Notes under the pieces: model-generated
Told to the model about the DNA's origin: nothing
Databases searched by the model: none
Seen by the model: the letters and a program-made list of their open reading frames with translations, nothing else
Made by a program: the position numbers and the translations under genes
Part shown: one piece after another, positions 17,794 to 48,368 of the stretch
Numbering within the stretch: position 1 is the stretch's first letter
How the letters are laid out: the number at the start of each line of letters is the position of its first letter
Virus record (IMG/VR): IMGVR_UViG_3300034157_000066
Direction: 5' to 3' (one strand)
Source of the DNA: a virus
Taxonomy: Duplodnaviria; Heunggongvirae; Uroviricota; Caudoviricetes
DNA length: 64,000 nt

Positions 17794-19350
17794 ATGAAGT
17801 TTATGAAATTGACAGTATTGTCATTAGCCATTATGACAGCCACTGGCACTTATGCTGAATATCAAGTTCTTGTTAAACTTGAACCAGAACACATCAACAT
17901 TGATGATTATGAAGTTGATGGAAATATAACACTTACAAAATCAACCATCAATCGTGGAGAATCATCTTCCATAGCATGGACATATACTTATGCGAATGAA
18001 ATTAATATTAATGGTGTCGGTAACTATACTGAAAAGTCTTCTTCTGTTATAGTTAACCCACTTGTCAGCACAAATTATGTCATCAATATTAAGAATGGGG
18101 CTAAAACAAAAGTAGAGCACTTAAACCTTACTGTTATCCAACCTATTCAAGACATCACATTTGATTCTGACACTTACAGAATTGGTTATGGTAAATCAGC
18201 TAAGCTTAGCTGGAATGTTTTAAATACGTCAGGTGTTAGCATATCACCATTGGGGCCACAATCAGATAGTGGTGTGTTCTCTGTTACACCTTTAAGTGAT
18301 ACAACTTATACACTGACTGCGAATGGCTATGATGGACTTGCTGCTAAAACAAAATCACTTAACATTACCGTAGTGCCAGACGCTGTTATTCAATCTTTCA
18401 CGGCTGATAAAACAAGTGTGACCAAAGGTGATTCTGTTAACTTCTCTTGGAATTCAACCAATCCAGAAGCCATTAAATTTAATGGTGAATCACTCAGTGC
18501 ATCAGCAACCACTAAAAATGTTGTCATGACTACAGTGGGTTCTTCTAATTACAAGTTAGATGTTGAGAGTTTAAGTGGTGCATCTGTTAGTGATACTGTT
18601 TCTGTTAACGTTCTTGATGTTCCAGTTGTGGGTACCATTAATAAACCAGCTACCAATGTATTTGCAAATGCTGCTTACACCACATCATGGACAGGCACTG
18701 GCGTTTCATCTTACAAACTATCAAGTAACAATGCTACATCAGGTGTTCCAGTAGCAGGTGTAACGCTTGGGGCAGCAACAAGTTATTCAATTACACCCAC
18801 TGCAGCCGGTACTTACACCTATACGTTAACTGGTGCGAACGCACTTAATTCCACTGCGAACAACACGTTCTCAATGACTGTTGAAGCCGATCCAACGTTG
18901 GGTGGTTTCTTAGTGAATGGTTCGACTGCGATTTCAGTGACAACCAACGCTGCTCTTAGCTTTACAAACTCAGGTTTGAGTGCTGGTTCAGCATTCCAAG
19001 GTAGAAGTGGTGCTTCCGATGTTGGATTACCGGGTACCGCTTCGGCAGGTGCAGGCGTCAGCACTTATTCGGCGGCGGCTAAGAAGACTTTGAATGGTAT
19101 TACCCGATACAGTGCTAATAGATCGGTAACAGTCACAACAGTTGCTCCGGGGCCAGTGTGTGAAGATATTTGGGGTTACAGCTACTGGAGTGAGACTGAA
19201 TATGAAGGTTCTGGTTATGAGTTGAGTGTTTACTGGAGAGGCGTTGCAAAATACAGTGGATATCGTTCAGGTAGTGGTGGTTCTCTGGTCGGTAACGATG
19301 GTAAAACATATGCTCAATCTGGTGATCGTGGCGTTTGTAAAATGAACTAA
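17794..19350 (+). CDS. secreted fibre/adhesin-like protein: signal peptide, Ig/PKD-like repeats, Cys-closed tip
   Basis: Sec signal ending TYA-EYQVLVKL; Thr/Ser-rich beta repeats (FTADKTSVTKGDSVNFSW); tip C...C rich in W/Y/G. Confidence 0.7.
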   Translation: MKFMKLTVLSLAIMTATGTYAEYQVLVKLEPEHINIDDYEVDGNITLTKSTINRGESSSIAWTYTYANEININGVGNYTEKSSSVIVNPLVSTNYVINIKNGAKTKVEHLNLTVIQPIQDITFDSDTYRIGYGKSAKLSWNVLNTSGVSISPLGPQSDSGVFSVTPLSDTTYTLTANGYDGLAAKTKSLNITVVPDAVIQSFTADKTSVTKGDSVNFSWNSTNPEAIKFNGESLSASATTKNVVMTTVGSSNYKLDVESLSGASVSDTVSVNVLDVPVVGTINKPATNVFANAAYTTSWTGTGVSSYKLSSNNATSGVPVAGVTLGAATSYSITPTAAGTYTYTLTGANALNSTANNTFSMTVEADPTLGGFLVNGSTAISVTTNAALSFTNSGLSAGSAFQGRSGASDVGLPGTASAGAGVSTYSAAAKKTLNGITRYSANRSVTVTTVAPGPVCEDIWGYSYWSETEYEGSGYELSVYWRGVAKYSGYRSGSGGSLVGNDGKTYAQSGDRGVCKMN

Positions 19351-19457
19351 AATAAATTAACATAGTTGTCAATTAAAGCAATTCTTCGGAGTTGCTTTTT
19401 TTTGTTTGTTAATTTCTAAATAATGAGTATAATAATATTACAAATACTAGAGTTTAT

Positions 19458-20258
19458 ATGTTAAAAGTTTCTTTCTTAATTCCCGCTTATAATGTCCAAG
19501 ATACACTTCCAGCATTGGTTCATAAATTGTTAAAACAGGCAGGTGACGTTTATCCACTTGAATTGGTTATCAGTGAAGATGATGGATTCTCATATAGAAC
19601 GATATTACCAGAAGATAACCGTATTGTTTATGCGGTTAAAGGTTTTAAATCAAGACCGGGACCAGCCAGAACAAGAGCACTTGAAGCCGCTACTGGTTCT
19701 CATATTTCTGTTCTGGACGCTGATGATGATGTTTCCGATGATTATTTGATGAAAATTTACACCACTTTAAAAACCTACAATGTGTTTGCTATTCAAACTG
19801 TATACAAAAAAGATGGCATGGTTGTTCGTTTATTTGATGAAAAAATGTTAACCGTTGATAATTTCATTAATTTCTATGGCAGTATTCATACGATTGCACC
19901 GAAACATTGGACGACTAAATATTTCAATATCACCGCTCAGGATGTGTTAGCGACATTAAATGTCATATTAAGAAACAATGGAATTGTTCCAGTGATAGAT
20001 GCTCAATACATTCTTAACATTCATGATGAATCTTATTGTTCACTTAATCTCTCAATTTTTAATGATACTTATAAACAAGGTATTAGTGAGAGTGTTAAAA
20101 TTGCAAAAGAATTAAAAAATGAAAAACTTGCTCCATTGATTAAGCGTATGTATCAAGCTAGATTGGAAATGGGAATATTGTTTGATAAGGAAGTTCAAGA
20201 CCATGAATACACTAATTACCATCAATTCATTCTTAATGTTTTAAAGAAAACACAATGA
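19458..20258 (+). CDS. GT2 (GT-A fold) glycosyltransferase
   Basis: VSFLIPAYN, VISEDDG, GPARTRALEAATG and LDADD (DxD) motifs. Confidence 0.85.
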   Translation: MLKVSFLIPAYNVQDTLPALVHKLLKQAGDVYPLELVISEDDGFSYRTILPEDNRIVYAVKGFKSRPGPARTRALEAATGSHISVLDADDDVSDDYLMKIYTTLKTYNVFAIQTVYKKDGMVVRLFDEKMLTVDNFINFYGSIHTIAPKHWTTKYFNITAQDVLATLNVILRNNGIVPVIDAQYILNIHDESYCSLNLSIFNDTYKQGISESVKIAKELKNEKLAPLIKRMYQARLEMGILFDKEVQDHEYTNYHQFILNVLKKTQ

Positions 20259-20602
20259 AAGATTACTCAATATATTTAAAACCTACCATACATGGCCCAG
20301 TTGACAGCGAAGTTATTCCTTTTGTTATTGATGGATTCGAATCTGAAACAACGATTTCTTTTATCTATAACAATGAAGAAACCATTCAAAAAACTCAACT
20401 GTTTAATGATATGAATCACTCTTATGGTTTTCCTTTATTCGATATTCATCACATTGTGATTGCAGAAGATATAGGCGGTTCTCCTATTATTTTAGATGCT
20501 ATTTCTGGTAGAGTCTATTTATCTTGGTTTGATTTTGATGGTGAATTGGCTTTATTATTTGAAGATTTAGAGTTGTTTTATAATTCATTACTATTGATAT
20601 AA
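20255..20602 (+). CDS. SMI1/KNR4 (SUKH) family protein
   Basis: IVIAEDIGGSPIILDAISGRVYLSWFD...LFEDLELF; ATGA overlap with GT2. Confidence 0.75.
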   Translation: MKDYSIYLKPTIHGPVDSEVIPFVIDGFESETTISFIYNNEETIQKTQLFNDMNHSYGFPLFDIHHIVIAEDIGGSPIILDAISGRVYLSWFDFDGELALLFEDLELFYNSLLLI

Positions 20603-20628
20603 AAAAGAGGCCGTTGCCTCCTTTATTT

Positions 20629-21129
20629 TTAGAAATTGTTCGCTTCTTTTACAGCTTCCATTTCTATCATTTCTTTTTTATTAATGTTATTTAGTTTTTC
20701 GTCAGTTAATATTATTAACATCTCCTTATTAACTAGGCCAGTACATCCAATAAAAAGAGATTTATTATTTTTCTGAATCGCATAAAATGTATTAGGATAG
20801 TCTTTTCCGATTGTAAATTCACCAAATCTTTTTGATAAAATGCCAGCGATAATTTCAGCTTCGGCATTACAATTTTCATTAGATTCCTTTAATGCTGCCA
20901 CATTATAAATTTTTTTCGTAGTTGGTGTATACACTGCTATTGCTTTTGTGAAACCTTTAAAGTCAATTGTATAAGCTGCTGTGTTTTTATCTTCATAATT
21001 CTTTATTATTTTCTCACTTTTTTGGTCTACTTCACTACCTAATTCAATATCAAATATTTTATCAATATTTTCAGCATAAACTTGTGAACTTAATAACAAC
21101 ATCGAACTTAAAATTATCTTTTTTAACAT
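20629..21129 (-). CDS. secreted hypothetical protein
   Basis: Signal peptide MLKKIILSSMLLLSSQVYA; Cys pair. Confidence 0.75.
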   Translation of the reverse strand: MLKKIILSSMLLLSSQVYAENIDKIFDIELGSEVDQKSEKIIKNYEDKNTAAYTIDFKGFTKAIAVYTPTTKKIYNVAALKESNENCNAEAEIIAGILSKRFGEFTIGKDYPNTFYAIQKNNKSLFIGCTGLVNKEMLIILTDEKLNNINKKEMIEMEAVKEANNF

Positions 21130-21277
21130 TTTTAATCTTCTTGTTTATTATTTATATTTTAATATCTTATTAATTTATTGTCAAACCATATAAAATTTTA
21201 CTAATATTTTCATAAGGTTGTTGCAATTTCCATCATCATTTGCTACGATTGTCTAACTATTAGGAGATAGAGAATAC

Positions 21278-22678
21278 ATGAGTAAACACAATTTCAATTT
21301 TTCAGAAGTTTCTGCTGTTAGCGAAGTCCCAAAAGCGGTTGAAGTCGTAGTCAGCACTTATCAATCCTCAGAAGATGGTCCGATTATCCATGAATCCATT
21401 CCCGTTGACATTCATCGTTACCTTGATGAAGAAAATTTCAGCGTTCAACATGGTTCTGTGTTCTATGTCATGCTGCATGTCAAAGCGGATGATAAATCCA
21501 TCGCTAAAAAAGTGACTACTGCTATTGCTGGTTTGCCAAAACATCTCACTAAGGTATCGGTTCTTGCTGATGTCGGTTGTTTGAAACAGTTTACTGCAGC
21601 TCTGCTGGTGGCGACTGCTCAACATTGGACAGCGAAATCCGAACAAAAAGCAAAACAACCAAAAGACGTTACCATTGTCTATGAAGGTGATGAACCTCTT
21701 GGTGAATTGAACGACCAAATTCAGTTAGGTAAAGCACTCGCATTGGCTCAGGCAACCAAGATTCGCCTTATTGAAATGCCTTCCAATTATCTCACGCCTA
21801 CTGCTTTGCTTCAAGAAGCCAAGAACATCATGGCATCGAGCCAAAAGGTCACTCTTTCTGTTGTCAGTGGTAAAGACTTGGAAGAAGAAGGATACGGCTC
21901 GCTTTACGCGGTTTCGAAAGGTTCTGTCGAAGAAGGTCATTTGATCACTCTTGAGTATAATGGCGGTGTCAAAGGTGAAGCCCCTATTGTGCTGGTAGGT
22001 AAAGGTTTGACGTTTGACTCAGGTGGTATTTCTATCAAGCCATCCCGTGGTATGGGTCGCATGAAAGGTGACATGGGGGGTGCAGCTACCGTTCTTGCAT
22101 CGTTGATTTATGCGATTGAAACCAATGTGAAGAAAAACATTGTGGCGATCATTGCAACGTGTGAAAACATGCCAGATGCTGCTGCTCTGAAACCGGGTGA
22201 TGTGATTACCGCTAAAAATGGTAAGACCATTGAAGTGGAAGATACAGACGCAGAAGGTCGTTTGGTGTTGGCTGACGCTCTTTGCCATGCTCAAACCTTT
22301 AATGGTGCTGTAACCATCGACTTTGCGACACTAACAGGTGCTGTGATTGCGGCTATCGGCCATGTTCACACTGGCTTGTTCACTGAAAGTGATGAGTGGG
22401 CTGAAACCCTTCTTGCGGCGGGTAAAGCTTCTGGTGATACAGCGTGGCGTTTGCCTATGGGTGATGAGTATAATCATTTTCTTGAAAGCTCTGTTGCCGA
22501 TTTGAACAACCTTTGCTTGGGTCAGGGTGCAGGAGCTACCAACGGTGCTATATTCTTGCGTGAGTTCGCTCCCAAAGAAAACTGGATTCACCTTGATATT
22601 GCGGGCACCAGCGATCACAACGGTGGTACCGGAAGACCAGTAGGATTGATGTCGCATTTCTTGGACACATTCCGTTAA
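21278..22678 (+). CDS. pepA: M17 leucyl aminopeptidase (PepA/PepB family)
   Basis: LVGKGLTFDSGG, IKP, MKGDMGGAA, TDAEGRLVLADAL and WIHLDIAG; all metal ligands present. Confidence 0.9.
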   Translation: MSKHNFNFSEVSAVSEVPKAVEVVVSTYQSSEDGPIIHESIPVDIHRYLDEENFSVQHGSVFYVMLHVKADDKSIAKKVTTAIAGLPKHLTKVSVLADVGCLKQFTAALLVATAQHWTAKSEQKAKQPKDVTIVYEGDEPLGELNDQIQLGKALALAQATKIRLIEMPSNYLTPTALLQEAKNIMASSQKVTLSVVSGKDLEEEGYGSLYAVSKGSVEEGHLITLEYNGGVKGEAPIVLVGKGLTFDSGGISIKPSRGMGRMKGDMGGAATVLASLIYAIETNVKKNIVAIIATCENMPDAAALKPGDVITAKNGKTIEVEDTDAEGRLVLADALCHAQTFNGAVTIDFATLTGAVIAAIGHVHTGLFTESDEWAETLLAAGKASGDTAWRLPMGDEYNHFLESSVADLNNLCLGQGAGATNGAIFLREFAPKENWIHLDIAGTSDHNGGTGRPVGLMSHFLDTFR

Positions 22679-22799
22679 TCGAAATTGACGTATTCAAAAG
22701 AGCCTTCATGGCTCTTTTTTCTTTTCCACTCTTATAAAATTGATTAATATTGTTTTTTGTGGTATTATCACAATCCATTAAATTAAAAGGTGTTCTCAT

Positions 22800-23495: not shown

Positions 23496-23522
23496 TTGAA
23501 CTTTTGATGAACAAAAGAGCCT

Positions 23523-23951: not shown

Positions 23952-24008
23952 TCCTTCTTGGTACCTATATCTTATAATGATACTCGGTTAAATCAACTTT
24001 TATTTTCT

Positions 24009-24037
24009 TTGACTTTTATTGTTATTTATATTATAAT
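24009..24037 (+). promoter_or_regulatory. sigma70-type promoter
   Basis: TTGACT-17 bp-TATAAT. Confidence 0.8.
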
Positions 24038-24077
24038 CCGAACGGTTTAATCAATATTTATTTAATTGGAGGCTTTG

Positions 24078-24857: not shown

Positions 24858-24896
24858 TGGTATAATCCATTCATTACTTTAAGGTGGTGTGACTCT

Positions 24897-25595: not shown

Positions 25596-25645
25596 TTTTC
25601 ATTGAATAATCTGTTAGAATACAGGATATTTAAGGAGATTAAACT

Positions 25646-28109: not shown

Positions 28110-29987
28110 TTAAATAGGTGGTGGCCCGATGTTCACTGCAATCGTCTGCGTGGCTTTTACTCCACTCAGTGATGTGGCAGTTAATGTGTAGACTATAACG
28201 CCTTGAACCTGTGGTGTAATCACACCTTCACCACCCGTAGTCACTGCTGTGCTCACACCTGAACCTGTGACTGAGCCTGTCAATTTGTAATCAACGGTAT
28301 TAGTCCCCGACCAGTAGACAATGAATGGCACGTATTGTTGACCTGTTGTTGGACCTGTGAACGATGTGATAACGGGTGGTGCTGCTACCGTAATCGTTAC
28401 TGTTCTTGTAGCTGAACGTGTCACTCCATTTAATGTTTTAGCATTTGTTAACGTATAAACATAGCTTCCATTTGTGGCGGGAGCTGTTACTACTGTTGAA
28501 CTTCCTGAAACGACGCCTACGGATCTATCTATAGAGACGATTTCAGCATTACTTATGTTCCAAGATAATGTAAACGTATTGTTTGGACCCACAGCCGAGG
28601 CTGACGTTGTGAAACTGCTGATGGTCGGATCAGCAACCACTGCAACATCTATTTTTTTCGTCACTGTTGTTCCAGCCGCATTTTTTGCAGTGATTGTATA
28701 GGTATAATCGCCTGTTGATGTGGGTGTAATATTTCGACTGGTGCTTGTTCCCATATCAATAGTCGAACTGATACCTGACCCAGAACCACCACTGCTTTTA
28801 ATGGTGTAGTTAGTCGATCCTGTTGCGGTAAATGACAATGTAAAAGCAGTATTTCTAAATACTGTATTAGGGGCTGTTAACGTCACTATCACGGGAGCTG
28901 GTAGTAACACTGATACAGCAATACCTTTGGTTACTGAGCGGCCAGCAGGGTTTGTTGCTACCATTATGAAGTTAGTTGTTCCTGATGTTGCATTGCTCAT
29001 TATTGTCATAGCACCTCCTGTTTTTGGGGCACCATTGATTACATATGTTGATACGCCATCATCAACCCATGTAAAATCTAATTGTGTGTTAGGTGATACA
29101 GTTAAACCACAGCAAATACTATTGGCATAGAACGCATCCAGTGATGGTATATTATAGACATCCACCGTTCTTTCTTGATTGATTACTAATCCGTTAAAAC
29201 TGGTGACTTCTAACTTGTAGTTGAAATTTCCAGCAGTCCCAAATGGTACTGCCCGAGAACCTACAGCAGATTCATTTCCACCATTTAATTTTACAATCGT
29301 AGAATCGCTGACATCCCAATTAAAGTTGGCTATATCGCCCACACTGACTTTTGTTTTATCCACAGTGAAACTATTAATCACTGCAGTGGATTCAACTTCG
29401 ATTGTAACCGTCTTGGTGATGTTGGGTTGACCTGCATAACCATAAGCAATGAGTGTATACGTTGCTGTTTGAGTGGGTGTTATACTGTAACTTGTATTGG
29501 TGTAATCTGTTTTACTCAGTAACCCTACTATTTCTATAAATTCTACGTTTTCTGTATTCCATATTAAATTAACAGTGTCGCCTTTACCTATTTTTAATGA
29601 ACTAGCACTAAAATCAGCCGTAGGTGGCGGTTGGTTAACACTGATTGTTATTTGTTGTGTGGTTGTTTCTCCACCATGTTTGATTATAACCGTGTAGGTG
29701 GTTGTTACGTTAGGTGATAGGAGGAAAGCTCCTGACTTATTGCTTGATGTATATATTGAGTAACCTTGAATACTTATTTCTTCTAAATCATTGTAATTCC
29801 AGTTTAGCAAGGATGAATTTCCACGATTTATAACGTTTGGTGTCACTTTTAAATCTCTTACTGTTTGCGTTGGACCGTCTATTATGTCTGCGAATTCCTC
29901 TTGTGGCAATGGTATCACGACTGTATATTCTGCGGAAGCTATTCCAGTTGACATCATCATCAATAAGGTTATTATTTTTTTATTCAT
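28110..29987 (-). CDS. secreted Ig/PKD-repeat fibre/adhesin-like protein
   Basis: Signal ending ASA-EYTVVIPL; repeated PxIxSFT...TLSW/NW beta modules; no Cys-closed tip. Confidence 0.7.
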   Translation of the reverse strand: MNKKIITLLMMMSTGIASAEYTVVIPLPQEEFADIIDGPTQTVRDLKVTPNVINRGNSSLLNWNYNDLEEISIQGYSIYTSSNKSGAFLLSPNVTTTYTVIIKHGGETTTQQITISVNQPPPTADFSASSLKIGKGDTVNLIWNTENVEFIEIVGLLSKTDYTNTSYSITPTQTATYTLIAYGYAGQPNITKTVTIEVESTAVINSFTVDKTKVSVGDIANFNWDVSDSTIVKLNGGNESAVGSRAVPFGTAGNFNYKLEVTSFNGLVINQERTVDVYNIPSLDAFYANSICCGLTVSPNTQLDFTWVDDGVSTYVINGAPKTGGAMTIMSNATSGTTNFIMVATNPAGRSVTKGIAVSVLLPAPVIVTLTAPNTVFRNTAFTLSFTATGSTNYTIKSSGGSGSGISSTIDMGTSTSRNITPTSTGDYTYTITAKNAAGTTVTKKIDVAVVADPTISSFTTSASAVGPNNTFTLSWNISNAEIVSIDRSVGVVSGSSTVVTAPATNGSYVYTLTNAKTLNGVTRSATRTVTITVAAPPVITSFTGPTTGQQYVPFIVYWSGTNTVDYKLTGSVTGSGVSTAVTTGGEGVITPQVQGVIVYTLTATSLSGVKATQTIAVNIGPPPI

Positions 29988-30096
29988 GATATATAAAAGA
30001 TGTTATACTTATTATATATATTATAGTATAAATATCCGATATCAATGGGCTACTTTTAGTTTTTTTATAAATTATCCTCTAAAAACAACAAAAAGC

Positions 30097-30125
30097 TTTA
30101 CAGCATTGTGTTTTTTTGATATTAT
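30097..30125 (+). promoter_or_regulatory. sigma70-type promoter
   Basis: TTTACA-17 bp-TATTAT. Confidence 0.65.
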
Positions 30126-30131
30126 TGTGTT

Positions 30132-30267
30132 GTTGAAATGTTTGGCCAAACGAACAAGGATACTGGTGGTGCAATGGTGCGGGCACTGTAAAATCCAGAA
30201 ATCTATCCGGGGTACGATTCCATACGCACCGCCAATTCTATATCAAGAGGCTTCGGCCTCTTTTTTT
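30132..30267 (+). ncRNA. putative structured small RNA with degenerate tRNA-like 3' part
   Basis: Promoter and terminator flank about 135 nt; GGTACGATTCC T-loop-like segment, ...CACCGCCA, stems GGATA/TATCC and CTGG/CCAG; no complete cloverleaf. Confidence 0.4.
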
Positions 30268-30310
30268 ATTTGTTTAAAGGATTATATTTATTTTCTTATC
30301 AAAGTAATTG

Positions 30311-30339
30311 TTGACGATTTTACAGTTTTTTAGTATAAT
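30311..30339 (+). promoter_or_regulatory. sigma70-type promoter
   Basis: TTGACG-17 bp-TATAAT. Confidence 0.8.
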
Positions 30340-30365
30340 CGTTGCACATGTTTAATTAGGTTTTA

Positions 30366-35942: not shown

Positions 35943-36065
35943 GGTCATCAACAAGAAGGGGAAACCCATTCTTGATTAGCGGTAAAGAGATATGGATTAT
36001 ATTAGGCTTTATTGCATAATCTGTATCGAGGGTGTGAAAGAAATTTTATACTTCATCTGTTCCAC

Positions 36066-36138
36066 AGAGGTGTATATCAGTTGGTAGATAATCTCCCTAG
36101 CAGGGAGAAGGTCGCGGGTTCAAGTCCCGTCACTGATG
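36066..36138 (+). tRNA. atypical or pseudo tRNA, anticodon AGC (Ala-type), damaged acceptor stem
   Basis: D-stem TATC/GATA, anticodon stem TCTCC/GGAGA with loop CTAGCAG, T-arm GCGGG-TTCAAGT-CCCGT; acceptor mismatches at pairs 2 and 3; no CCA. Confidence 0.6.
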
Positions 36139-36166
36139 TGGATTTAGGCCGAGAGGTCAGGACAAA

Positions 36167-36240
36167 TACGGTGTATATCAGCGGCCTAGATAATCTCTCT
36201 AATCGAGAGAAGGACGTAGGTTCAAATCCTACCACTGTAT
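36167..36240 (+). tRNA. atypical tRNA, anticodon AAT (Ile-type)
   Basis: Full cloverleaf: TACGGTG/CACTGTA, TATC/GATA, TCTCT-CTAATCG-AGAGA, GTAGG-TTCAAAT-CCTAC; C37, G38, U73; no encoded CCA. Confidence 0.75.
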
Positions 36241-36250
36241 TGCAAGAACC

Positions 36251-40809: not shown

Positions 40810-40953
40810 TATCTTTTTTACACCTATAAAAGCAGTTAGACATTTGTTCAGATTATATCATTTATTCGCTTTTTTTACCATCTGTTTTTTAGCTTTCGTT
40901 TCTACTGTTGTTGTGTTATAATGGAGCTTCAAAACATAGCATTCAGGTGACCT

Positions 40954-41346
40954 ATGCTTAAAACAATGCGAATGATAGCTATCCATATTGCAATGGTTTC
41001 AATTATTTTGTCTATTGCGTCTTTCGTCAACTATTATCTACTGGATAACAGTATGGGAAAAGGCGTCTATGCCGCTACTCTGGCAGCTTCGCTGTACTTG
41101 CAAGCGGTTCTCGGTGTTAATATGTTTTGCATGTTGGATAATGTGGATATGCCACTGAATGAAGTGGTTGATCTCAATGCAGCAAATATGTACCTGATTG
41201 GCTTCATTCTTATCACGATGATAACGCTTGCTATCACGTTTAATGCTAATTTTCTGGTGATGTTACTTTGTATGGCAGGCAATGGCATATTGAGTCATCT
41301 TCTTTGTAAAAAGTCTAAGAAAGCAGCACATGATAAGATAAAGTAG
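40954..41346 (+). CDS. four-TM membrane protein
   Basis: Hydrophobic segments; AGGTG RBS. Confidence 0.75.
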   Translation: MLKTMRMIAIHIAMVSIILSIASFVNYYLLDNSMGKGVYAATLAASLYLQAVLGVNMFCMLDNVDMPLNEVVDLNAANMYLIGFILITMITLAITFNANFLVMLLCMAGNGILSHLLCKKSKKAAHDKIK

Positions 41347-41516
41347 TAGTATTAGAATATTAAATATGTTCACAAAAAAAATTGATTTACACTTTTATAC
41401 TATTGCTTATTATTTTCCTTTTTATAGTGTAAATCGTGAAAAGGTGATTTGTAATTTATATTGACTATTTTTTTTTATATTGTATATTTATATTATAATA
41501 ATAAGAATAATAATAT

Positions 41517-42650
41517 ATGAAAAATAAATCAATGGTTCTTTTGTCTCTTTTAACGGTAAGTATTACGCAAGCTACTTATATGGTTAAAGTAAATTTAGGT
41601 GACGAAATAACATTTTATCAATGGACAAACGAATCTCCTGTACTTGGATCTTGGGTCAATTCTGGGGCTATTTATGATTGTTCTAACTGGTCACCTCTTG
41701 TTGAATCCATGACGACTGGCATTTCTTTTACACAAACAGCAACAGATTGCAAGCAAAATCAAACACAAACTGCTCAAGATAGAGAAATTGATACTGTTAC
41801 TGGCACTGTTCGTGATAAAGGACTTCCTTATACTAATACACAACATATTCCAGCGAGTGACACTCGACTAGCGGTTGGAACTTTAGAAACATGGATTGCT
41901 GCATTACCTGAATTTACAGCTTGGGTTGATAACGGTGGTGTTACTAATTGTACAAACTGGTCACCTGCGACTTCAACAGTGACAATCAATCAAGATTTTA
42001 CTCAAACCGCAACTGACTGTACACAAGCTCAAACTCGTTCTAAACAAGATCGTGAACAAGAAACAACCACAGGGGCTTTTAGAAATGTTGGTGCTGTTGT
42101 AACAGAATCCAAAAACCTTGTTGCATCTTCTACTCGATTAGCGAAAGGATCAAAAGAAACATGGGTAGCCATTGCATCTACTTCTACAGCATGGGTTAAT
42201 AATGGTGCATTAACAGGTTGTTCTAACTGGTCACCTGCTACATCAACTGTTCCTGCCAACCAAGGATTTACTCAAACGGCTACAGACTGTAAACAACCAC
42301 AAACTAGCACTAGACAAGATCGTGAACAAGAAACAACAACCTTAGCTATTCGTAATAAAGGTGTTGCAGTTACTGAAAACCAAAACATTACAACAACATC
42401 TACCAGAACAGCTACTGGCACTAAAGTTGCTCAGCAATGTTTGTATGATACTTATAACTATAATTGGTCACATGGTTTTGCTTACACAACTACAATCGTA
42501 TGGGCTGGACAAGTCTTGTTTGACAACTCTTGGACTAGTGAGCTTGGGGCTTATTCTTCTATGGTTATTGGCGGCTTTAAGTATAGTCGTGGTGCAGATG
42601 GTCCTGATTATCCGGGGATGTCTTATTACATTTGTAGAGAGCCTATTTAA
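41517..42650 (+). CDS. secreted fibre/adhesin-like protein with three Cys/Trp/Thr repeats and variable tip
   Basis: Signal ending TQA-TYMVKVNL; 3x CxNWSP...FTQTATDCxQxQT; tip C...YYICREPI. Confidence 0.75.
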   Translation: MKNKSMVLLSLLTVSITQATYMVKVNLGDEITFYQWTNESPVLGSWVNSGAIYDCSNWSPLVESMTTGISFTQTATDCKQNQTQTAQDREIDTVTGTVRDKGLPYTNTQHIPASDTRLAVGTLETWIAALPEFTAWVDNGGVTNCTNWSPATSTVTINQDFTQTATDCTQAQTRSKQDREQETTTGAFRNVGAVVTESKNLVASSTRLAKGSKETWVAIASTSTAWVNNGALTGCSNWSPATSTVPANQGFTQTATDCKQPQTSTRQDREQETTTLAIRNKGVAVTENQNITTTSTRTATGTKVAQQCLYDTYNYNWSHGFAYTTTIVWAGQVLFDNSWTSELGAYSSMVIGGFKYSRGADGPDYPGMSYYICREPI

Positions 42651-42770
42651 AAATTTAGAAAAGTCCAGTGATGGGCTTTTTTACTTACAGCCTTAAACGT
42701 TATAATTTATAAGTTTACAAAAGCCTTGATTTTTGGTATAATGATACCATCTTAAAAAGGTGTAATCGTT

Positions 42771-43496
42771 ATGTCTAAAATCAACAGTAGCAAAAGTAAT
42801 GGCACATTGTTTGAGCAAATCGGCTTGGCGTTCATCGCTACTGCCGGTCAGCCTTACTTTGCCAATAACGGCTACATCGCTACCTCTGACGCAGACATTG
42901 CTCGTTGGGTTGAGAACGACTATGACCTTTTCACTAAATACCTTAAACCAGATGGCTTTCGTCGTGGTTGGGGCGTTCAAGGTAAAATTCACATCGGCAA
43001 CATTCGTATTGACCCAGACTTCTTTGACATGGAGACAGGTAGCCTTTACGAATTCAAATATCAGGAAAGCAGTGGTTCGATGATTGAAAAGCTTTACAAA
43101 AACTTTTTGACCTATCAAGCCATTAAAGATCCTTCGTTCATTGTCCATCATGGCGTAGGTTTCAGTGACCGGTTCTTTTCTTGCTTGAATGAACATCGCC
43201 AGTTCATGAAACACCCTGACTTGACCCAGTTCATTACGTTTAATCAATTTGTTCAAGAAAAACTTGGTTTGTCGATTGACGTGAGTGAGTCTCATATGTC
43301 GATTGCTACTGACAAGGCTGCAACATCGGCTGTTCGTCGCAAGCATGTTAAGTTAAAGGATTACGTTGAACGTGTTGTTTACGACACAAAAAGCAACAAG
43401 GAAATTGCTCGCTTCAAAACTCTGCAACTGCTTGAAGACGCATCGAATGATGGCTTCAAGGATGACAATTTCTTTAAAAAATGCTCTTTCAACTAA
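42771..43496 (+). CDS. putative PD-(D/E)XK nuclease
   Basis: IDPDFFD...YEFKYQESSGSMIEKL. Confidence 0.5.
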   Translation: MSKINSSKSNGTLFEQIGLAFIATAGQPYFANNGYIATSDADIARWVENDYDLFTKYLKPDGFRRGWGVQGKIHIGNIRIDPDFFDMETGSLYEFKYQESSGSMIEKLYKNFLTYQAIKDPSFIVHHGVGFSDRFFSCLNEHRQFMKHPDLTQFITFNQFVQEKLGLSIDVSESHMSIATDKAATSAVRRKHVKLKDYVERVVYDTKSNKEIARFKTLQLLEDASNDGFKDDNFFKKCSFN

Positions 43497-43509
43497 TTAG
43501 GAACTTTTT

Positions 43510-43797
43510 ATGACTGCCTTGCAAACTGCTGAATTGATTGAGTCACCGTTTATGAAAGTGAACAAAGGTCTGGAAATTGTGGGCAACTGGCCTAAGCATA
43601 TTCGTGCATTGGCTGATGGCACTGCTGTTGAAGAACTTCGTTGTGCTTGTTTTTACTACATCCATAAAAAGACGCCGAAATTGCAGTCTGAAATTATGAC
43701 TGATGACATTACTGACAGTGTAATTAACGTTATCAATATTATTGAAAAATTGGCTAATGAAATCCTTGGCAGAGACGGGCCAATTGTGGTAGAATAA
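43510..43797 (+). CDS. hypothetical protein
   Basis: AGGA RBS, operonic. Confidence 0.7.
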   Translation: MTALQTAELIESPFMKVNKGLEIVGNWPKHIRALADGTAVEELRCACFYYIHKKTPKLQSEIMTDDITDSVINVINIIEKLANEILGRDGPIVVE

Positions 43798-43829
43798 CCT
43801 ATCTTAAACAAACCAGCGAGATTAAAACA

Positions 43830-44213
43830 ATGGAACTCACTTTGAAAGCCATTCAAATTGCAAAAGACGCCCATGAGTCGGTTGTCACTGCACAAAAGAC
43901 TTACAAAAGAACTCAGGGGCTTATTCGTGAAGCTATCGCTGCTGAACACCCTCTCAGTTCGTTGATTGGGAAAGACTACATTTACACCAGAGCTATGTGG
44001 GGCACTCCCAACAAAGGCGTTACTGATGCGGAATACCTTAAACAACACGAGCATATGCAAGCCTATCAGCTTGAGTTTGGTGACAATCCAGAAAACCATT
44101 ATGGTTTTGAACAAGGTGCCATTTACGCTTGTTATGTGTGTCTGGAACATGATTCCAGTTTTGACGAAGAACATCCAGAATTTTGGGAACTCTTGTTCGT
44201 CAAAGTCAACTAA
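43830..44213 (+). CDS. hypothetical protein
   Basis: Operonic; UUCG terminator follows. Confidence 0.75.
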   Translation: MELTLKAIQIAKDAHESVVTAQKTYKRTQGLIREAIAAEHPLSSLIGKDYIYTRAMWGTPNKGVTDAEYLKQHEHMQAYQLEFGDNPENHYGFEQGAIYACYVCLEHDSSFDEEHPEFWELLFVKVN

Positions 44214-44314
44214 CACGGCTACATCGTATAAGGCATCCTTCGGGGTGCCTTTTTTATTGAATACTGTTTCTATTTGTGGTATAATAGTCCATCTTAACGA
44301 AAAGAGTATTTGCC

Positions 44315-44830
44315 ATGCATAATGACAGCACGCTCATGTATTGCTTATTGCTACTTGCTGTGTTTGCTTTTGTGATTTACCACGTAGGTATGCACAGAAT
44401 CAATCATGAATTCAAGAATCCTCCCGATACAGGTGATTGGGTCAACTTCTTTGATGAATACAAAGACATGATGTCTTCTATTATCCAAGGTCCGCTGCAG
44501 TATGCTGATAGCTGGCTTGGCCGACATGTCATTTACAAATACCTCGATGACAAAGCAACCGTTAATGGTCGTAAAATTGATTGTTGTTCAGTTAAAATCA
44601 AGTTTATGTTGAAAACCTACAAAGATGGTCGCCGGGAAATTCATGCTGACACTGAAAGCCATTACGGCAAACCAGAATTTTACAATGGTGAAGTTCATGA
44701 AAATTATGATGTGGGTGGCAAAAGTTTTGTCGCGGATGTGAATAACTTTAATCAGATGTGGAAAGAAATCCTTGAATATCATTTTTCTGTCAAACTTGAT
44801 GGAAAGACTGACAAAATCAAGATTTCTTGA
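44315..44830 (+). CDS. hypothetical protein with N-terminal TM anchor
   Basis: Own promoter and terminator. Confidence 0.75.
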   Translation: MHNDSTLMYCLLLLAVFAFVIYHVGMHRINHEFKNPPDTGDWVNFFDEYKDMMSSIIQGPLQYADSWLGRHVIYKYLDDKATVNGRKIDCCSVKIKFMLKTYKDGRREIHADTESHYGKPEFYNGEVHENYDVGGKSFVADVNNFNQMWKEILEYHFSVKLDGKTDKIKIS

Positions 44831-44919
44831 ATAACCTTCATTTAAAAGCATCCTTCGGGATGTTTTTTTTGCTTATTTTTTAATGATGTGTTATTATCAG
44901 GCATTATTGGAGAAATCAT

Positions 44920-45141
44920 ATGTCAGTATTAACGTTACGAGTGGTTAAAGGTGGCTCAATAGGTTCAATAGACACGTTCAAAGTTCAACAGCGGAAGTTC
45001 ATTTTCTGGGTTGATTTTAAAGAAGGTGGCGTTGTTCGCACGTTCGACAGTCTCGTTTTGGCGAATATGTATGCTCAATTGAAAGCACGGTCAATGAAAG
45101 GCAAGTTTATTGATCGCAAAATAAAAAGCAATGTGGTATAA
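44920..45141 (+). CDS. hypothetical protein
   Basis: GGAG RBS. Confidence 0.7.
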   Translation: MSVLTLRVVKGGSIGSIDTFKVQQRKFIFWVDFKEGGVVRTFDSLVLANMYAQLKARSMKGKFIDRKIKSNVV

Positions 45142-45165
45142 TAGGTCATTCTTACGGAGAACGAC

Positions 45166-45663
45166 ATGAAATACATTAAAATTAAAGACACTGTTGTTGT
45201 TTTTGACGAAGTGACCAATCACGGTTTTATGGCTCGATTGTTGGGTGACGAAGAAGATGTTCAGTCAGCCGGTTTTGTCAAAGTGTTCCCTACCTCGGGT
45301 AACACCATCCGTCTCAGTGTGGGTGGACGAAGCAACACCTTGAAAATCGACTCCAATCCTGCTGACAAAGCTATTGTTGAAGAACACTTTAAAATGTCGG
45401 CTGACAGTCCTGTTAACTTTATCAGCACAGAAGACACGTTTATTCTTTTTCCAATGAATGCACCCTTTGATGTGGTTGATGCCATGAAGACCATCTGGCC
45501 CGGTGCTGAATTCGTTCATGGTCAACTGTCTTTTGAAACCGTTGAAAGTGATGACTTCCGTTATAACTCGGGCTATAAGGCTGTTCCGAAGTTTTCAAAT
45601 GTTGTAGGCACTGTCAGCAATGACCTGATGTTTACCATTGATTTCAATATTCGGGCAGATTAA
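45166..45663 (+). CDS. hypothetical protein
   Basis: Promoter plus GGAG RBS. Confidence 0.8.
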   Translation: MKYIKIKDTVVVFDEVTNHGFMARLLGDEEDVQSAGFVKVFPTSGNTIRLSVGGRSNTLKIDSNPADKAIVEEHFKMSADSPVNFISTEDTFILFPMNAPFDVVDAMKTIWPGAEFVHGQLSFETVESDDFRYNSGYKAVPKFSNVVGTVSNDLMFTIDFNIRAD

Positions 45664-45736
45664 TCTGCCTTTTTCTATACATCAAGCTCATTTAATGGTA
45701 TAATTGAGCCATCTTAAATAACATAGGTATTTCGAT

Positions 45737-46015
45737 ATGGCTTTCTTCAGTGTTATCAAGCAAGTTGAGTTTAAAACCGTTCAAGATGTTTTGAAATCGG
45801 CTCCTTTTGCTGTTCGGCCACGAATGGATAAAGGTGATATTGCTTTGTTTATATACTTTGAAGATGCTCATAAAAATATGATTGAAATTGGATCGATTAC
45901 TCTTTCTGTTGCTTTCATGGCTGACAAGGAAAATTTTGGCGGAAAAACCATCGAAGAATGGATTGCTGATCATGCAGATGAAGTCATTCCATCGGGTGTT
46001 TTCAAAAATAATTAA
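45737..46015 (+). CDS. hypothetical protein
   Basis: Promoter, AGG RBS, UUCG terminator. Confidence 0.75.
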   Translation: MAFFSVIKQVEFKTVQDVLKSAPFAVRPRMDKGDIALFIYFEDAHKNMIEIGSITLSVAFMADKENFGGKTIEEWIADHADEVIPSGVFKNN

Positions 46016-46209
46016 AAAAAGATAAGTTTCCACCTTAATCAAACCAGCTTCGGCTGGTTTTTTACTGGTCACAGAAAAAGTTACGGGTTTACCTGTCACT
46101 TTAAATCAAATTAATTACCTCATTTTTGCTTATAAACGCTTTTTGAGAATGATTAGCATTATTGACAAATACAAATATTGTGATAGTATATGACCAACAA
46201 ACAGAGGGT

Positions 46210-46569
46210 ATGTATATGAAAAATAACAATTTATTAATCGCTGCAGTTTTACCAATTGTTTATGGTGCTTACAAATATTACACTGACAAAGACTTTAAAG
46301 CTAAAGTAACAACCAATTTAGATAAAATTTATAATTCAGTTGATAATGGAGCACAAAAGTTGAAAAGACGTGTAGGGCACGCAGAAATAGAGCTTAAATC
46401 ATTTTTCAATGAAGCCTATGATGAGTTAAAGCTTACAGATGAGCAAATCGAAGACATTCACGAGGTCTTGAACAATAAAACGTCTGGTCTTGTGAATCGC
46501 GTCAAAAAGCTTCTTAACGAAGAGCAGAGAAAAATTTATGAATCTTCATTACACACATTGAAAAAGTGA
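46210..46569 (+). CDS. YtxH-like membrane-anchored helical protein
   Basis: N-terminal hydrophobic LLIAAVLPIVYGAY then charged helical region; family call tentative. Confidence 0.5.
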   Translation: MYMKNNNLLIAAVLPIVYGAYKYYTDKDFKAKVTTNLDKIYNSVDNGAQKLKRRVGHAEIELKSFFNEAYDELKLTDEQIEDIHEVLNNKTSGLVNRVKKLLNEEQRKIYESSLHTLKK

Positions 46570-46681
46570 ATATTCATATATAACAGAGGTCGTAATAACC
46601 TTTTGGACGGCTGTTCATAAACGATTGTATCCATCTACAATTGATTACAAAAAATAAACTTTCCTTTGGAGGCAAAATTCT

Positions 46682-46825
46682 ATGAATACACAACAGAATC
46701 AATCTCAAAATAAAAATGAACAAGGTAAGCAAAATCTGAAACAACCACAACCACAAACTGGGACTAAGCAAACACAGGCAAAACCTGCCGAGAAGGCACA
46801 AAGTCCTACTCAAAAACATAAGTAG
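46682..46825 (+). CDS. 47-aa Gln/Lys-rich disordered peptide
   Basis: GGAGG RBS; MNTQQNQSQNKNEQGKQNLKQPQPQTGTKQTQAKPAEKAQSPTQKHK; too short for the ORF track. Confidence 0.7.
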   Translation: MNTQQNQSQNKNEQGKQNLKQPQPQTGTKQTQAKPAEKAQSPTQKHK

Positions 46826-47234
46826 GACATAAATAAGTGTTAACCCTATGACCTTCGGGCCACAATCAAAGTCTATTACTATGTAGACTTAAGAAAGAAA
46901 ACTATTTGAAATTTCAAATACACGAAAACCCAGTTATTCTGGGTTTTTTTGTGTGGCAATGAATATATATTTTTACGGGTTTTTGTATGTGACGGTTTAT
47001 TTTTATAATACGGAATTATGTCACTTCTTGTTTTTTTTGTAGAAATAAATTATTTTACAACAATAATAACCCAAAAAAACCTTAATAAAGCTATTAATCT
47101 CCATTAAAAATAACATAATTAAAAAATTCCTCGTTTTAAATATATTAATTAATTATAAAATTTAAAAAAACAGTCTATATTAATAGTATTATATGTGGTA
47201 TTATAGTATTAATACAACAACAATATATATAGAT

Positions 47235-48368
47235 ATGAAAAAAACAATAATACTTTCATTATCAGCCTTAGCAGTAAGTGTTTCACAAGCTGCGTATATG
47301 GTAAAAGTTAACTTAGGCGAAGAAGTCACCTTTTTTCAATGGGCTGCTGAACAACCAGTTCTAGGACCGTGGGTTAATTCTGGCTCAGTTTATGACTGTT
47401 CTAACTGGTCACCGGACCCTTCAACTATTACTGTTAACATGCCTTTTATACAAACAGCGACTGATTGTAAACAAAATCAAGAACAAACTGCTCAAGATAG
47501 AGAAATTGATACCGTTTCTGGTACCGTGCGTGATAGTGGCGATCCTTATGTCAATACTCAATATATTACAGTAGGCAATACTCGTGCTGCAGTAGGCTTG
47601 TTAGAATCATGGATAGCTGCATTACCTGAATTTACATCTTGGGTTGATAATGGTGCATTAACAGGTTGTTCAAACTGGTCACCTGCGACTTCAACAGTGA
47701 CAATCAATCAAGATTTTACTCAAACCGCAACTGACTGTACACAAGCTCAAACTCGTTCTAAACAAGACCGTGAACAAGAAACAACCACAGGAGCTTTTAG
47801 AAATGTTGGTGCTGTTGTAACAGAATCAAAAAACCTTGTTGCATCTTCTACTCGATTAGCGAAAGGAGCAAAAGAAACATGGGTAGCCATTGCTTCTACT
47901 TCTACAGCTTGGGTTAATAATGGTGCATTAACAGGTTGTTCTAACTGGTCACCAGCTACATCAACTGTCAATGCTAACCAAGCGTTTACTCAGACAGCTA
48001 CAGACTGTAAACAACCACAAACAAGCACTAGACAAGATCGTGAGCAAGAAACAACAACCTTAGCTATTCGTAATAAAGGCGTTGCGGTTACTGAAAACCA
48101 AAATCTCACTACATCATCTACTAGATCAGCTATTGGTACTAAATCTTCTACTATATGTCGTTTTAATGAAGTAACAGACAATGTAACGAATTATGGCTCT
48201 ATTGCTAGCTACTCATTCACATGGGATGGCGAGTGGTTTTATATGGGCGATGGTGGTCCAGTGTTAAATTATAATGGTTATAGATATACTATTTCATCCT
48301 TTGTAAAAACTGTATATTCTACTTATCTTCAAACTCATTACTATACTATATGTAGAACACCTCTATAA
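47235..48368 (+). CDS. secreted fibre/adhesin-like protein, paralog of 41517 with a different tip
   Basis: Signal ending SQA-AYMVKVNL; same repeats; tip C...YTICRTPL. Confidence 0.75.
   Translation: MKKTIILSLSALAVSVSQAAYMVKVNLGEEVTFFQWAAEQPVLGPWVNSGSVYDCSNWSPDPSTITVNMPFIQTATDCKQNQEQTAQDREIDTVSGTVRDSGDPYVNTQYITVGNTRAAVGLLESWIAALPEFTSWVDNGALTGCSNWSPATSTVTINQDFTQTATDCTQAQTRSKQDREQETTTGAFRNVGAVVTESKNLVASSTRLAKGAKETWVAIASTSTAWVNNGALTGCSNWSPATSTVNANQAFTQTATDCKQPQTSTRQDREQETTTLAIRNKGVAVTENQNLTTSSTRSAIGTKSSTICRFNEVTDNVTNYGSIASYSFTWDGEWFYMGDGGPVLNYNGYRYTISSFVKTVYSTYLQTHYYTICRTPL

What the first reader, a model, noticed from the sequence alone, without database searches (positions are those of the whole stretch)
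17794..48368. Modular exported fibre/adhesin system: common N-terminal strand, swappable stalks, variable tips
Seen: four dispersed genes (17794, 28110, 41517, 47235) have Sec signals followed by one mature-start motif: EYQVLVKL, EYTVVIPL, TYMVKVNL and AYMVKVNL. Two have Ig/PKD-like stalks; two have three Cys/Trp/Thr repeats that are loosely thrombospondin-like. Three end in a ~65-75 aa W/Y/G-rich domain bracketed by two Cys, with very different sequences. All have long, extremely AT-rich, SD-less upstream regions unlike the other genes. Inference: co-regulated subunits that plug into one surface structure through a donor-strand-like motif and present alternative receptor-binding tips, analogous to PilV tips but without a shufflon.
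Basis: partly seen in the sequence, partly recalled or inferred. Interest (0 to 1): 0.8.

Follow-up and report, generated by a model that had tools for sequence, protein, structure and literature searches.

The report
Tagged secreted rod-and-head adhesin cassettes
Four scattered genes on a giant uncultured mobile element encode exported proteins built from a short shared address tag, a stiff rod and a variable binding head. They most likely dock on, or leave the cell through, a mating-type (type IVb) pilus, which would give the element a set of alternative sticky tips.

Summary
Four single-gene cassettes (17794, 28110 on the minus strand, 41517, 47235) encode Sec-signal proteins. Each mature N-terminus is xY(T/M/Q)Vx(I/V)xL.

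Two have rods of Ig-like domains. Two have rods of three copies of a 90-residue, two-cysteine beta-hairpin repeat that is absent from Pfam. Three end in a small head bracketed by two cysteines and rich in W, Y and G. All four have the longest and most AT-rich upstream regions in the window.

The 90-residue-repeat proteins belong to an undescribed family: 808 clusters at 50% identity among 1.84 billion representatives. It occurs on 101 large plasmids, mostly Pseudomonas megaplasmids. None was found in 50,697 phage records, and two scans of IMG/VR confirmed none.

Tag type follows the element, not the cargo. Rods, repeat numbers and heads are shuffled.

In two unrelated backbones (pQBR103 type and Pseudomonas entomophila 6C6), a tagged gene lies directly downstream of a PilV-like minor pilin gene. 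The tag also resembles the CofJ pilus secretion signal (AFTVNMP).

Best reading (about 0.45): these are pilus-docked or pilus-exported adaptor adhesins. This is inferred, not shown. The donor-strand (chaperone-usher) idea is not supported.

The scan had already reached a similar reading for neighbouring DNA of this genome.

The parts
17504..17793 (+). Upstream region of P0001: terminator of the preceding gene, then about 250 bp of 12-13% GC DNA with only a weak AAGG before the ATG
17794..19350 (+). P0001, 518 aa. Signal peptide 17794-17856; tag EYQVLVKL 17857-17880; five Ig-like domains 17911-19143; Cys-bracketed W/Y/G-rich head 19159-19347.
   Evidence: orthologs and relatives
28110..29987 (-). 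P0002, 625 aa. Signal peptide 29931-29987; tag EYTVVIPL 29907-29930; stalk to the C-terminus 28113-29870, read as Ig-like but not folded here; no Cys-bracketed head.
   Evidence: (orthologs P0141-P0143)
29988..30365 (-). Upstream region of P0002, 378 bp and AT-rich near the start codon with no SD. It also holds a possible small tRNA-like gene and terminator on the + strand (30163-30270).
41347..41516 (+). Upstream region of P0003, 15% GC. Promoter-like TTGACT-16-TATATT at 41461-41488; AT-only leader of about 22 nt without SD.
41517..42650 (+). P0003, 377 aa. Signal peptide 41517-41573; tag TYMVKVNL 41574-41597; three 90-residue repeats 41622-42431; head 42438-42647. The cassette is missing at this position in the syntenic 1.86 Mb relative L093.
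46820..47234 (+). Upstream region of P0004, 415 bp. The last 100 bp are 12% GC, the lowest in the window. No SD.
47235..48368 (+). P0004, 377 aa from the Met at 47235. Tag AYMVKVNL 47292-47315; three 90-residue repeats 47340-48149; head 48156-48365. L093 carries a two-repeat ortholog with a different head subtype at the same position.

Best explanation
The four genes are stand-alone cassettes for exported adaptor adhesins.

Proposed steps:
1. Sec export and signal-peptidase cleavage expose a flexible 8-20 residue N-terminal tag with a near-invariant Tyr at mature position 2.
2. The tag acts like a type IVb pilus secretion signal. It binds the PilV-like minor pilin complex at the tip of the element's thin (mating-type) pilus. 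The protein is then carried through the secretin and displayed at the tip, or released.
3. The rod (Ig-like beads, or 90-residue disulfide-stapled beta-hairpin repeats) holds a small, probably glycan-binding, head away from the pilus.
4. Several cassettes with different rods and heads give one pilus alternative binding specificities, for example for recipient cell surfaces. This would achieve with separate proteins what the R64 shufflon achieves by DNA inversion in PilV.

Shown: the architecture, the modular shuffling, the element-specific tags and the gene linkage to PilV-like genes in relatives.

Inferred: the tag-pilin contact, the export route and the ligand.
For: 1. Tag conservation. Among 72 unique class I N-termini, Ala is at the cleavage site in 71, Tyr at mature +2 in 68 (Phe in 4), Pro in 52 and Leu in 58. 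The tag is low-confidence and unpacked in both AF2 models.

2. Likeness to a known signal. Known type IVb pilus secretion signals are short flexible N-terminal segments with one essential aromatic residue that bind the minor-pilin trimer (PMC6048534, PMC9565799). The CofJ peptide in PDB 5ypz_D reads ...GGAFTVNMPK.... The family consensus is xYTVKIPLE.

3. Tag type follows the element, not the cargo.
- This element and its relatives use YxVx(I/V)PL on both Ig-rod and 90-residue-rod proteins.
- pMPPla107 and pBASL58 use N(I/V)IRxxAP(I/V) on about 10 paralogs with varied tails.
- IncP-2 and pQBR103 plasmids use (S/T)WxxIR..SGSGxSGW.
- In P. huaxiensis the class I tag also heads an unrelated 170-residue protein.

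4. Gene linkage.
- In pQBR103 a PilV-like gene is followed on the same strand by a family gene. The same pair occurs in two further Pseudomonas genomes.
- In P. entomophila 6C6 a 578-residue PilV-like gene (N_methyl + Shufflon_N) is followed 60 bp later by a class I tagged gene.
- 9 of 27 family genes on four megaplasmids lie within 6.5 kb of a prepilin, PilV-like or prepilin-peptidase gene, against 2.0 expected (permutation p about 1e-4).
- All four Pseudomonas megaplasmids carry a PilV-like gene, prepilin peptidase, secretin and prepilins.
- 3 of 6 family-positive Pseudomonas genomes are Shufflon_N-positive, against 22 of 395 family-negative ones.

5. Rods and heads fit adhesins. The Ig rod matches GhpA and MpIBP extenders. 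The 90-residue repeat best resembles SasG/Aap G5-E and TSR rods. One relative replaces the head with an F5/8 type C, galactose-binding-like domain (27.1 bits against a 28.2 cut-off).

6. Distribution. The family is on 101 plasmid records and was not found in phage collections.
Against: - No pilin, secretin or pilus ATPase gene lies in this 64 kb window. Pilin genes elsewhere on this element are known only from earlier unchecked notes.
- The tag likeness to CofJ is a six-residue match found after the fact.
- The Vibrio plasmid relative has 9 matched stretches in about five ORFs but no plasmid-borne prepilin, peptidase, secretin or PilV-like gene, and it has a different N-terminus.
- Most pMPPla107 paralogs lie far from its single PilV-like gene.
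- Gene pairs on pQBR103-type backbones are not independent of each other.
- pMPCFBP13716 gave no Shufflon_N hit.
- No complex could be modelled and no experiment exists.
- A type II secretion route or a periplasmic role fits the same architecture.
Confidence: 0.45

Rival explanations
1. Pilus-independent secreted or envelope proteins. The proteins leave through the host type II secretion system, or stay in the periplasm or outer membrane. They act as soluble lectins, aggregation factors or surface-exclusion factors. The conserved N-terminus would be an anchoring or folding strand for another partner.
For: Sec signals and disulfide-stapled repeats show export only. The Vibrio relative lacks plasmid-borne pilus genes. 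Long relatives fuse the 90-residue repeat to secreted subtilases, so the rod is a general extracellular spacer. No pilus genes lie in the window.
Against: This does not explain why tag type tracks the element rather than the cargo. It also does not explain the repeated position directly behind PilV-like genes or the clustering near pilin genes.
Confidence: 0.25
2. The N-terminal strand is a donor strand by which the subunits polymerise, or plug into one fibre, in the manner of chaperone-usher pili.
For: Hydrophobic residues alternate in the tag (Y-V-I/V-L). The tag is not packed against the monomer in the AF2 models.
Against: No usher was found on five carrier plasmids, and no ORF of usher size exists in the window. 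The Ig domains are modelled as complete sandwiches at pLDDT above 90. The tag classes of other elements (NIIRxxAPI, SWxxIRxSGSG) are not alternating strands.
Confidence: 0.1
3. The shared N-terminus has no address function. It is inherited sequence next to the signal-peptidase site, kept for efficient export or cleavage. The proteins are unrelated cargo of a gene family that simply duplicates.
For: The motif lies immediately after the cleavage site. Paralogs arise by duplication.
Against: The same tag sits on proteins with unrelated bodies: Ig rods, 90-residue rods and a 170-residue protein. The residues after it diverge freely. Different elements keep different tags across many paralogs.
Confidence: 0.12
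4. Phage-related role. The proteins are virion fibres, receptor-binding proteins or anti-phage decoys of a giant phage.
For: The window looks like a phage early region: small same-strand ORFs with no family matches. An ESM Atlas structural neighbour of the P0004 head is a GP38 adhesin cluster (TM 0.61 over 70 residues). A weak profile hit links the Ig rod to a phage tail protein.
Against: Cleavable Sec signals are not expected on tailed-phage virion proteins. There were no matches in 50,697 phage records or in the IMG/VR scan, against 101 plasmid records. Ten of the longer ORFs in the window outside the four cassettes gave no PHROG hit.
Confidence: 0.05

Closest known systems
CofJ (ETEC CFA/III) and TcpF (Vibrio cholerae TCP): exoproteins exported by type IVb pili through an N-terminal pilus secretion signal that binds the minor pilin trimer (PMC6048534, PMC9565799, PMC10120004)
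   Same: A Sec signal is followed by a flexible N-terminal segment with one key aromatic residue. Signals are lineage-specific. In relatives the gene lies beside a minor pilin gene. The CofJ core AFTVNMP resembles xYTVKIPL.
   Different: The bodies share no sequence or fold similarity. Here there are many paralogs per element, rod-and-head architecture and dispersed single-gene cassettes. The carriers are conjugative-type giant elements rather than a virulence operon. Binding and secretion are untested.
PilV adhesins of IncI (R64) thin pili with the shufflon, and PilV2 of the PAPI-1 conjugative type IVb pilus (PMC5297154, PMC13729200)
   Same: Alternative C-terminal binding tips serve one mating pilus, and PilV-like genes neighbour the family in relatives.
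   Different: These proteins are not pilins: they have a Sec signal, not a class III prepilin signal. No Rci recombinase or sfx repeats are involved. Diversity comes from separate genes and recombination at the rod-head junction.
SasG/Aap G5-E repeats and thrombospondin type 1 repeats (properdin, THSD7A, BAI1)
   Same: Flat, elongated beta-sheet repeat modules form rods in surface or secreted proteins. These are the best structural matches to the 90-residue repeat.
   Different: The matches are weak (Z at most 5.0, TM below 0.25). The unit is 90 residues with 2 Cys, against about 60 residues with 6 Cys in TSR. There is no Pfam match.
Invasin/intimin and other bead-on-string adhesins (GhpA, MpIBP)
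   Same: Strings of Ig-like domains end in a small disulfide-bonded binding head. pQBR103-type members are annotated as Ig-like, and a related Pseudomonas megaplasmid member as invasin domain 3-containing.
   Different: There is no beta-barrel, type I secretion signal or other anchor. Attachment would have to go through the N-terminal tag.

Membership tests
Type IVb pilus-dependent exoproteins (TcpF/CofJ type) | Cleavable Sec signal peptide | tested here: met
   n-h-c regions and AxA-type sites were read from the sequence. Ala is at -1 in 71 of 72 relatives. No SignalP run was possible.
Type IVb pilus-dependent exoproteins (TcpF/CofJ type) | Flexible N-terminal segment of the mature protein with an essential aromatic residue | tested here: met
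   Tyr or Phe is at mature +2 in 72 of 72. pLDDT is below 60 for the tag in both models. Whether the residue is essential was not tested.
Type IVb pilus-dependent exoproteins (TcpF/CofJ type) | Binds the cognate minor pilin trimer, and secretion depends on the pilus | not testable with these tools
   No multimer modelling and no experiment were available.
Type IVb pilus-dependent exoproteins (TcpF/CofJ type) | Encoded with the pilus genes or the minor pilin | tested here: inconclusive
   Not met in this window, which has no pilin motif. Met in relatives: pQBR103, G137, G307 and P. entomophila L003. Clustering p is about 1e-4.
Type IVb pilus-dependent exoproteins (TcpF/CofJ type) | Homology of the body to TcpF or CofJ | tested here: not met
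   A profile search of PDB sequences gave no CofJ or TcpF hit, and neither appeared in the fold searches.
Chaperone-usher pilus subunits | PapD-like chaperone and usher encoded with the subunits | tested here: not met
   PF00577 is absent from 5 carrier plasmids. No ORF of usher size is in the window. The chaperone family was not searched.
Chaperone-usher pilus subunits | Incomplete Ig fold completed by a donor strand | tested here: not met
   The Ig domains of P0001 are modelled as complete sandwiches at pLDDT above 90 without using the tag.
Thrombospondin type 1 repeat | About 60-residue three-strand fold with a CWR layer and six Cys; Pfam PF00090 | tested here: inconclusive
   There was no Pfam hit at E up to 1. 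Fold hits to properdin, THSD7A and BAI1 TSRs are weak (E 1.5e-3; Z 3.0-3.6). The unit here is 90 residues with 2 Cys.
G5/E repeats (SasG, Aap) | Single-layer elongated beta-sheet repeat | tested here: inconclusive
   5dbl_A gave Z 5.0 with 81 residues aligned at rmsd 4.3. 8deo_A gave Foldseek probability 0.97 but TM 0.14.
Type IV pilins (PilV, shufflon adhesins) | Class III prepilin signal G(F/L)(S/T)L(I/L)E plus a hydrophobic helix | tested here: not met
   No such motif exists in the four proteins or anywhere in the window.

The most novel reading that the evidence does not exclude
Giant conjugative-type elements may vary the specificity of their mating pilus at the protein level. Instead of a DNA shufflon, they would keep a repertoire of separately encoded, Sec-exported rod-and-head adaptors. 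Each would dock through an element-specific N-terminal tag onto the PilV-like tip pilin. That would be a plug-in adhesin system that evolves by cassette gain and loss and by recombination at the rod-head junction.
Probability: 0.3. Interest if true: 0.85.

Novelty: new variant of a known kind. Interest (0 to 1): 0.66.

Why it matters
If the tag is a pilus docking or secretion signal, pilus-dependent exoproteins are not a curiosity of two gut pathogens. They would be a widespread, modular device of very large plasmids, including the IncP-2 and pQBR103-type megaplasmids that spread drug resistance in Pseudomonas.

It would explain how such elements choose recipient cells or surfaces. It would also define a new rod-forming repeat domain and a new head domain for Pfam.

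pQBR103 in P. fluorescens SBW25 offers a tractable model for testing the idea: a PilV-like gene followed by a tagged gene.

Tried and rejected
- Pfam and NCBIfam gave nothing above cut-off for the four proteins.
- PHROGs and Pfam on the large neighbouring ORFs found only a PepA-like M17 peptidase and a GT2 glycosyltransferase.
- Megablast of 25 kb against phages found no match. No whole genome is held for the window.
The 1.86 Mb relative contig could not be searched either.
- Scans of viral contigs with P0003, P0001 and the family alignment found no relatives.
- Is the window element a pMPPla107 relative? No. Only the two repeat proteins match that plasmid, and it has 53% GC against 35% here.
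- phmmer of the tag region against PDB chains found nothing. The CofJ likeness rests on reading the peptide.
- Head fold: P0003 scored pLDDT 50-77 and P0001 about 40, too poor for a fold call. VIA hits at Z about 3.3 (ADAM17 prodomain, AbmU, DUF3224) and the Atlas GP38 neighbour are leads only.
- P0001-type Ig-rod proteins were not found on PLSDB plasmids.
- The possible tRNA-like gene at 30163-30234 folds no better than shuffles (z -1.15).

Full report
WHAT IS THERE

The four ORFs translate cleanly. P0001 (17794-19350, +) has 518 residues and P0002 (28110-29987, -) has 625. P0003 (41517-42650, +) has 377. P0004 is best started at 47235, as in its orthologs, and then also has 377.

Each begins with a standard Sec signal. 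After the predicted cleavage site come EYQVLVKL, EYTVVIPL, TYMVKVNL and AYMVKVNL. The pattern xYxVx[VI]xL occurs five times in all six frames of the window, and four of those are these N-termini.

Every gene is its own unit:
- The preceding gene's terminator comes first.
- Then come 170-415 bp of very AT-rich DNA. The last 100 bp are 12-19% GC, ranking 1, 2, 4 and 10 of 102 genes against a median of 30%.
- Three genes have no Shine-Dalgarno sequence.
- A hairpin terminator follows the stop codon of P0001, P0003 and P0004. For P0002 only about 30 nt past the stop were read, so none can be called.

ARCHITECTURE

P0001 is modelled with high confidence as five Ig-like sandwiches between residues 40 and 450. 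Its best solved matches are bead-on-string adhesin rods: the GhpA grappling hook, titin and the MpIBP extender.

P0003 and P0004 each contain three 90-residue units. Each unit has two cysteines and the core WxNxGxxxxCxNWxP...FxQTATDCxQxQTRxRQxREQE. AF2 gives each unit pLDDT above 90 as a short hairpin plus a 23-residue-per-strand hairpin.

The nearest solved folds are SasG/Aap G5-E repeats (Z 5.0) and thrombospondin repeats of properdin, THSD7A and BAI1. All of these matches are weak. No Pfam or NCBIfam model matches, and a family profile finds no solved relative.

Three proteins end in a 59-66 residue segment between two cysteines, with 27-39% W+Y+G. These heads differ greatly in sequence. 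They still share a W.G...G(G/Y).Y..G...Y.(I/V)C(R/K) skeleton.

In both models the signal and tag are low-confidence and not packed on the body.

A FAMILY, AND REAL SHUFFLING

P0003 has 170 relatives in the word-indexed search. A profile search of 1.84 billion cluster representatives finds 808 at E up to 1e-3 and 294 at E up to 1e-30, with lengths up to 3,139 residues. Members carry 1-7 or more repeat units of 90 or 81 residues.

P0001 has 31 relatives, and those with a complete N-terminus carry the same tag. Many end in the same kind of head. Some combine Ig domains with 90-residue units. The head subtype of P0001 recurs on 90-residue-rod proteins P0040 and P0066.

Both architectures occur on the same large contigs of 1.92, 1.84, 1.04 and 0.024 Mb.

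Inside the window, the P0003 and P0004 genes are:
- 65-75% identical at the 5' end;
- 92-100% identical across repeats 2 and 3;
- about 45% identical from codon 295, the rod-head junction, onward.

A 20 kb stretch of a 1,859,102 bp metagenomic contig (L093, 35.6% GC) is syntenic with window 36.3-57 kb. It lacks the P0003 cassette. At the P0004 position it carries a two-repeat ortholog with another head subtype.

Long relatives fuse the repeat to secreted subtilases. One relative has an F5/8 type C, galactose-binding-like head just under the Pfam cut-off.

WHERE THE FAMILY LIVES

tblastn finds the repeat family on 101 PLSDB records: 91 Pseudomonas, 9 Vibrio and 1 Stutzerimonas. The records listed are 300-970 kb. 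They include:
- pMPPla107, with about 14 paralogs;
- pBASL58;
- pQBR103;
- IncP-2-type resistance megaplasmids.

No member was found in 50,697 phage records. Scans of IMG/VR with P0003 and with the family alignment confirmed no relative.

Among 401 Pseudomonas species genomes, only 6 carry the family. In P. entomophila and P. huaxiensis the genes lie in islands of 36-45% GC within genomes of 65% GC.

Only P0003 and P0004, of all the window's ORFs, match pMPPla107. The window's element is therefore a different, AT-rich lineage that shares this gene family.

THE TAG

Across 72 unique class I N-termini the cleavage-site Ala (71), Tyr (68, otherwise Phe), Pro (52) and Leu (58) are kept, while downstream residues vary.

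Other elements use other tags, each shared by all paralogs of that element whatever their tails:
- N(I/V)IRxxAP(I/V) in pMPPla107, pBASL58 and pMPCFBP13716;
- (S/T)WxxIR(I/T)SGSGxSGWQxVVC in pQBR103 and IncP-2 plasmids;
- LLYVQRLKGMVP and FRYNYTL classes in other relatives.

In P. huaxiensis the class I tag, extended to DYMIKIPLEQAQGGSLPSGSI, also heads an unrelated 170-residue protein. The tag behaves as a portable, element-specific address.

LINK TO TYPE IVb PILI

I took that as a lead and tested it.

Published work shows that these exoproteins bind the minor-pilin trimer through a short flexible N-terminal signal with one essential aromatic residue. The signals are lineage-specific: FxxxYxSxS, SxGGAFT and YGF. 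The CofJ peptide in PDB 5ypz_D is SPSSSEGGAFTVNMPKTSTVDDIR. Its bound core AFTVNMP resembles xYTVKIPL.

Genomic tests:
- All four Pseudomonas megaplasmids examined carry PilV-like (Shufflon_N) genes, prepilin peptidase, secretin and prepilins. The Vibrio plasmid carries none.
- 9 of 27 family genes lie within 6.5 kb of such a gene, against 2.0 expected (p about 1e-4).
- In pQBR103 a PilV-like gene is followed on the same strand by a family gene whose true start restores a signal peptide.
- The same pair occurs in two more Pseudomonas genomes.
- On pBASL58 a family gene sits beside a prepilin peptidase gene.
- On pVIM-24 a family gene sits beside a 365-residue prepilin gene.
- Independently, in P. 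entomophila 6C6 a 578-residue PilV-like gene is followed after 60 bp by a class I tagged gene.
- No usher gene is present on any of the five plasmids.

READING

The best-supported model is that these are pilus-linked adaptor adhesins. They would be exported by Sec, captured by their tag on the PilV-like tip of the element's thin pilus, and carried out through the secretin. They would then present alternative heads on rods of different length.

I put this at about 0.45. The architecture, the shuffling, the tag behaviour and the gene linkage are shown. The contact, the route and the ligand are inferred.

The main rival is a pilus-independent secreted or envelope role (0.25). It is kept alive by three points: the window has no pilus genes, the Vibrio relative has none on its plasmid, and most pMPPla107 paralogs lie far from its PilV-like gene.

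The donor-strand idea, a purely inherited N-terminus and a phage role are less likely, for the reasons listed under the rivals.

LIMITS

- I could not read the rest of this element. Statements that it carries pilin genes and is about 1.9 Mb come from earlier unchecked notes. My own evidence is the syntenic 1.86 Mb contig.
- Signal peptides were judged by eye, not by SignalP.
- The head domains are poorly modelled.
- Association tests are not corrected for shared ancestry of plasmid backbones.

The scan has already reported this family, with a similar reading, on neighbouring DNA of this genome. It has reported comparable tagged proteins beside pilin genes in other genomes.

Noticed in passing
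window 30163-30270 (+): A possible small RNA gene lies in the P0002 upstream region. It has a 9-bp acceptor-like stem, a GGTACGATTCC T-loop-like segment and a CCA-like end, followed by a GC hairpin terminator. ARAGORN and Rfam do not call it, and its fold is no better than shuffles (z -1.15).
   Followed up: partly
window 36065-36241 (+): Two adjacent tRNA genes have A34 anticodons, Ala(AGC) and Ile(AAT). This is unusual for bacteria. Only the first reaches the Rfam tRNA threshold.
   Followed up: no
window 40954-42650 versus L093 5530-5750: The P0003 cassette and the small membrane-protein gene at 40954-41346 are present in the window. Both are absent from the otherwise syntenic 1.86 Mb relative, so this is a clean cassette indel.
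   Followed up: partly
window 20629-21129 (-): A 166-residue protein has a Sec signal (…SSQVYA|ENIDKIF) and the third most AT-rich upstream region in the window, but no class I tag. It may be another exported cassette of a different kind.
   Followed up: no
window 19458-20258 (+) and 21278-22678 (+): A family 2 glycosyltransferase lies directly downstream of P0001, and a PepA-like M17 aminopeptidase lies nearby. These were the only Pfam matches among the ten other ORFs that were scanned.
   Followed up: no
L002 7946-8452 (Pseudomonas huaxiensis): The class I tag with its PLEQxQGGxLPxGSI extension is fused to an unrelated 170-residue body, 1.5 kb from a family gene. Both lie in a low-GC island that also holds replicase, resolvase and methylase genes.
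   Followed up: partly
L089 17800-18981 (pQBR103 166138-166980): The RefSeq start of the 'Ig-like domain-containing protein' appears too short. An upstream Met (MRSLRGCITAAVALFVAAIVPCSQA) restores a signal peptide and the element's N-terminal tag.
   Followed up: partly
P0195, P0220 (metagenomic relatives): The 90-residue repeat also occurs several times in 1,700-2,000 residue proteins that carry an N-terminal subtilase and He_PIG Ig domains. The repeat is therefore a general extracellular rod module.
   Followed up: partly
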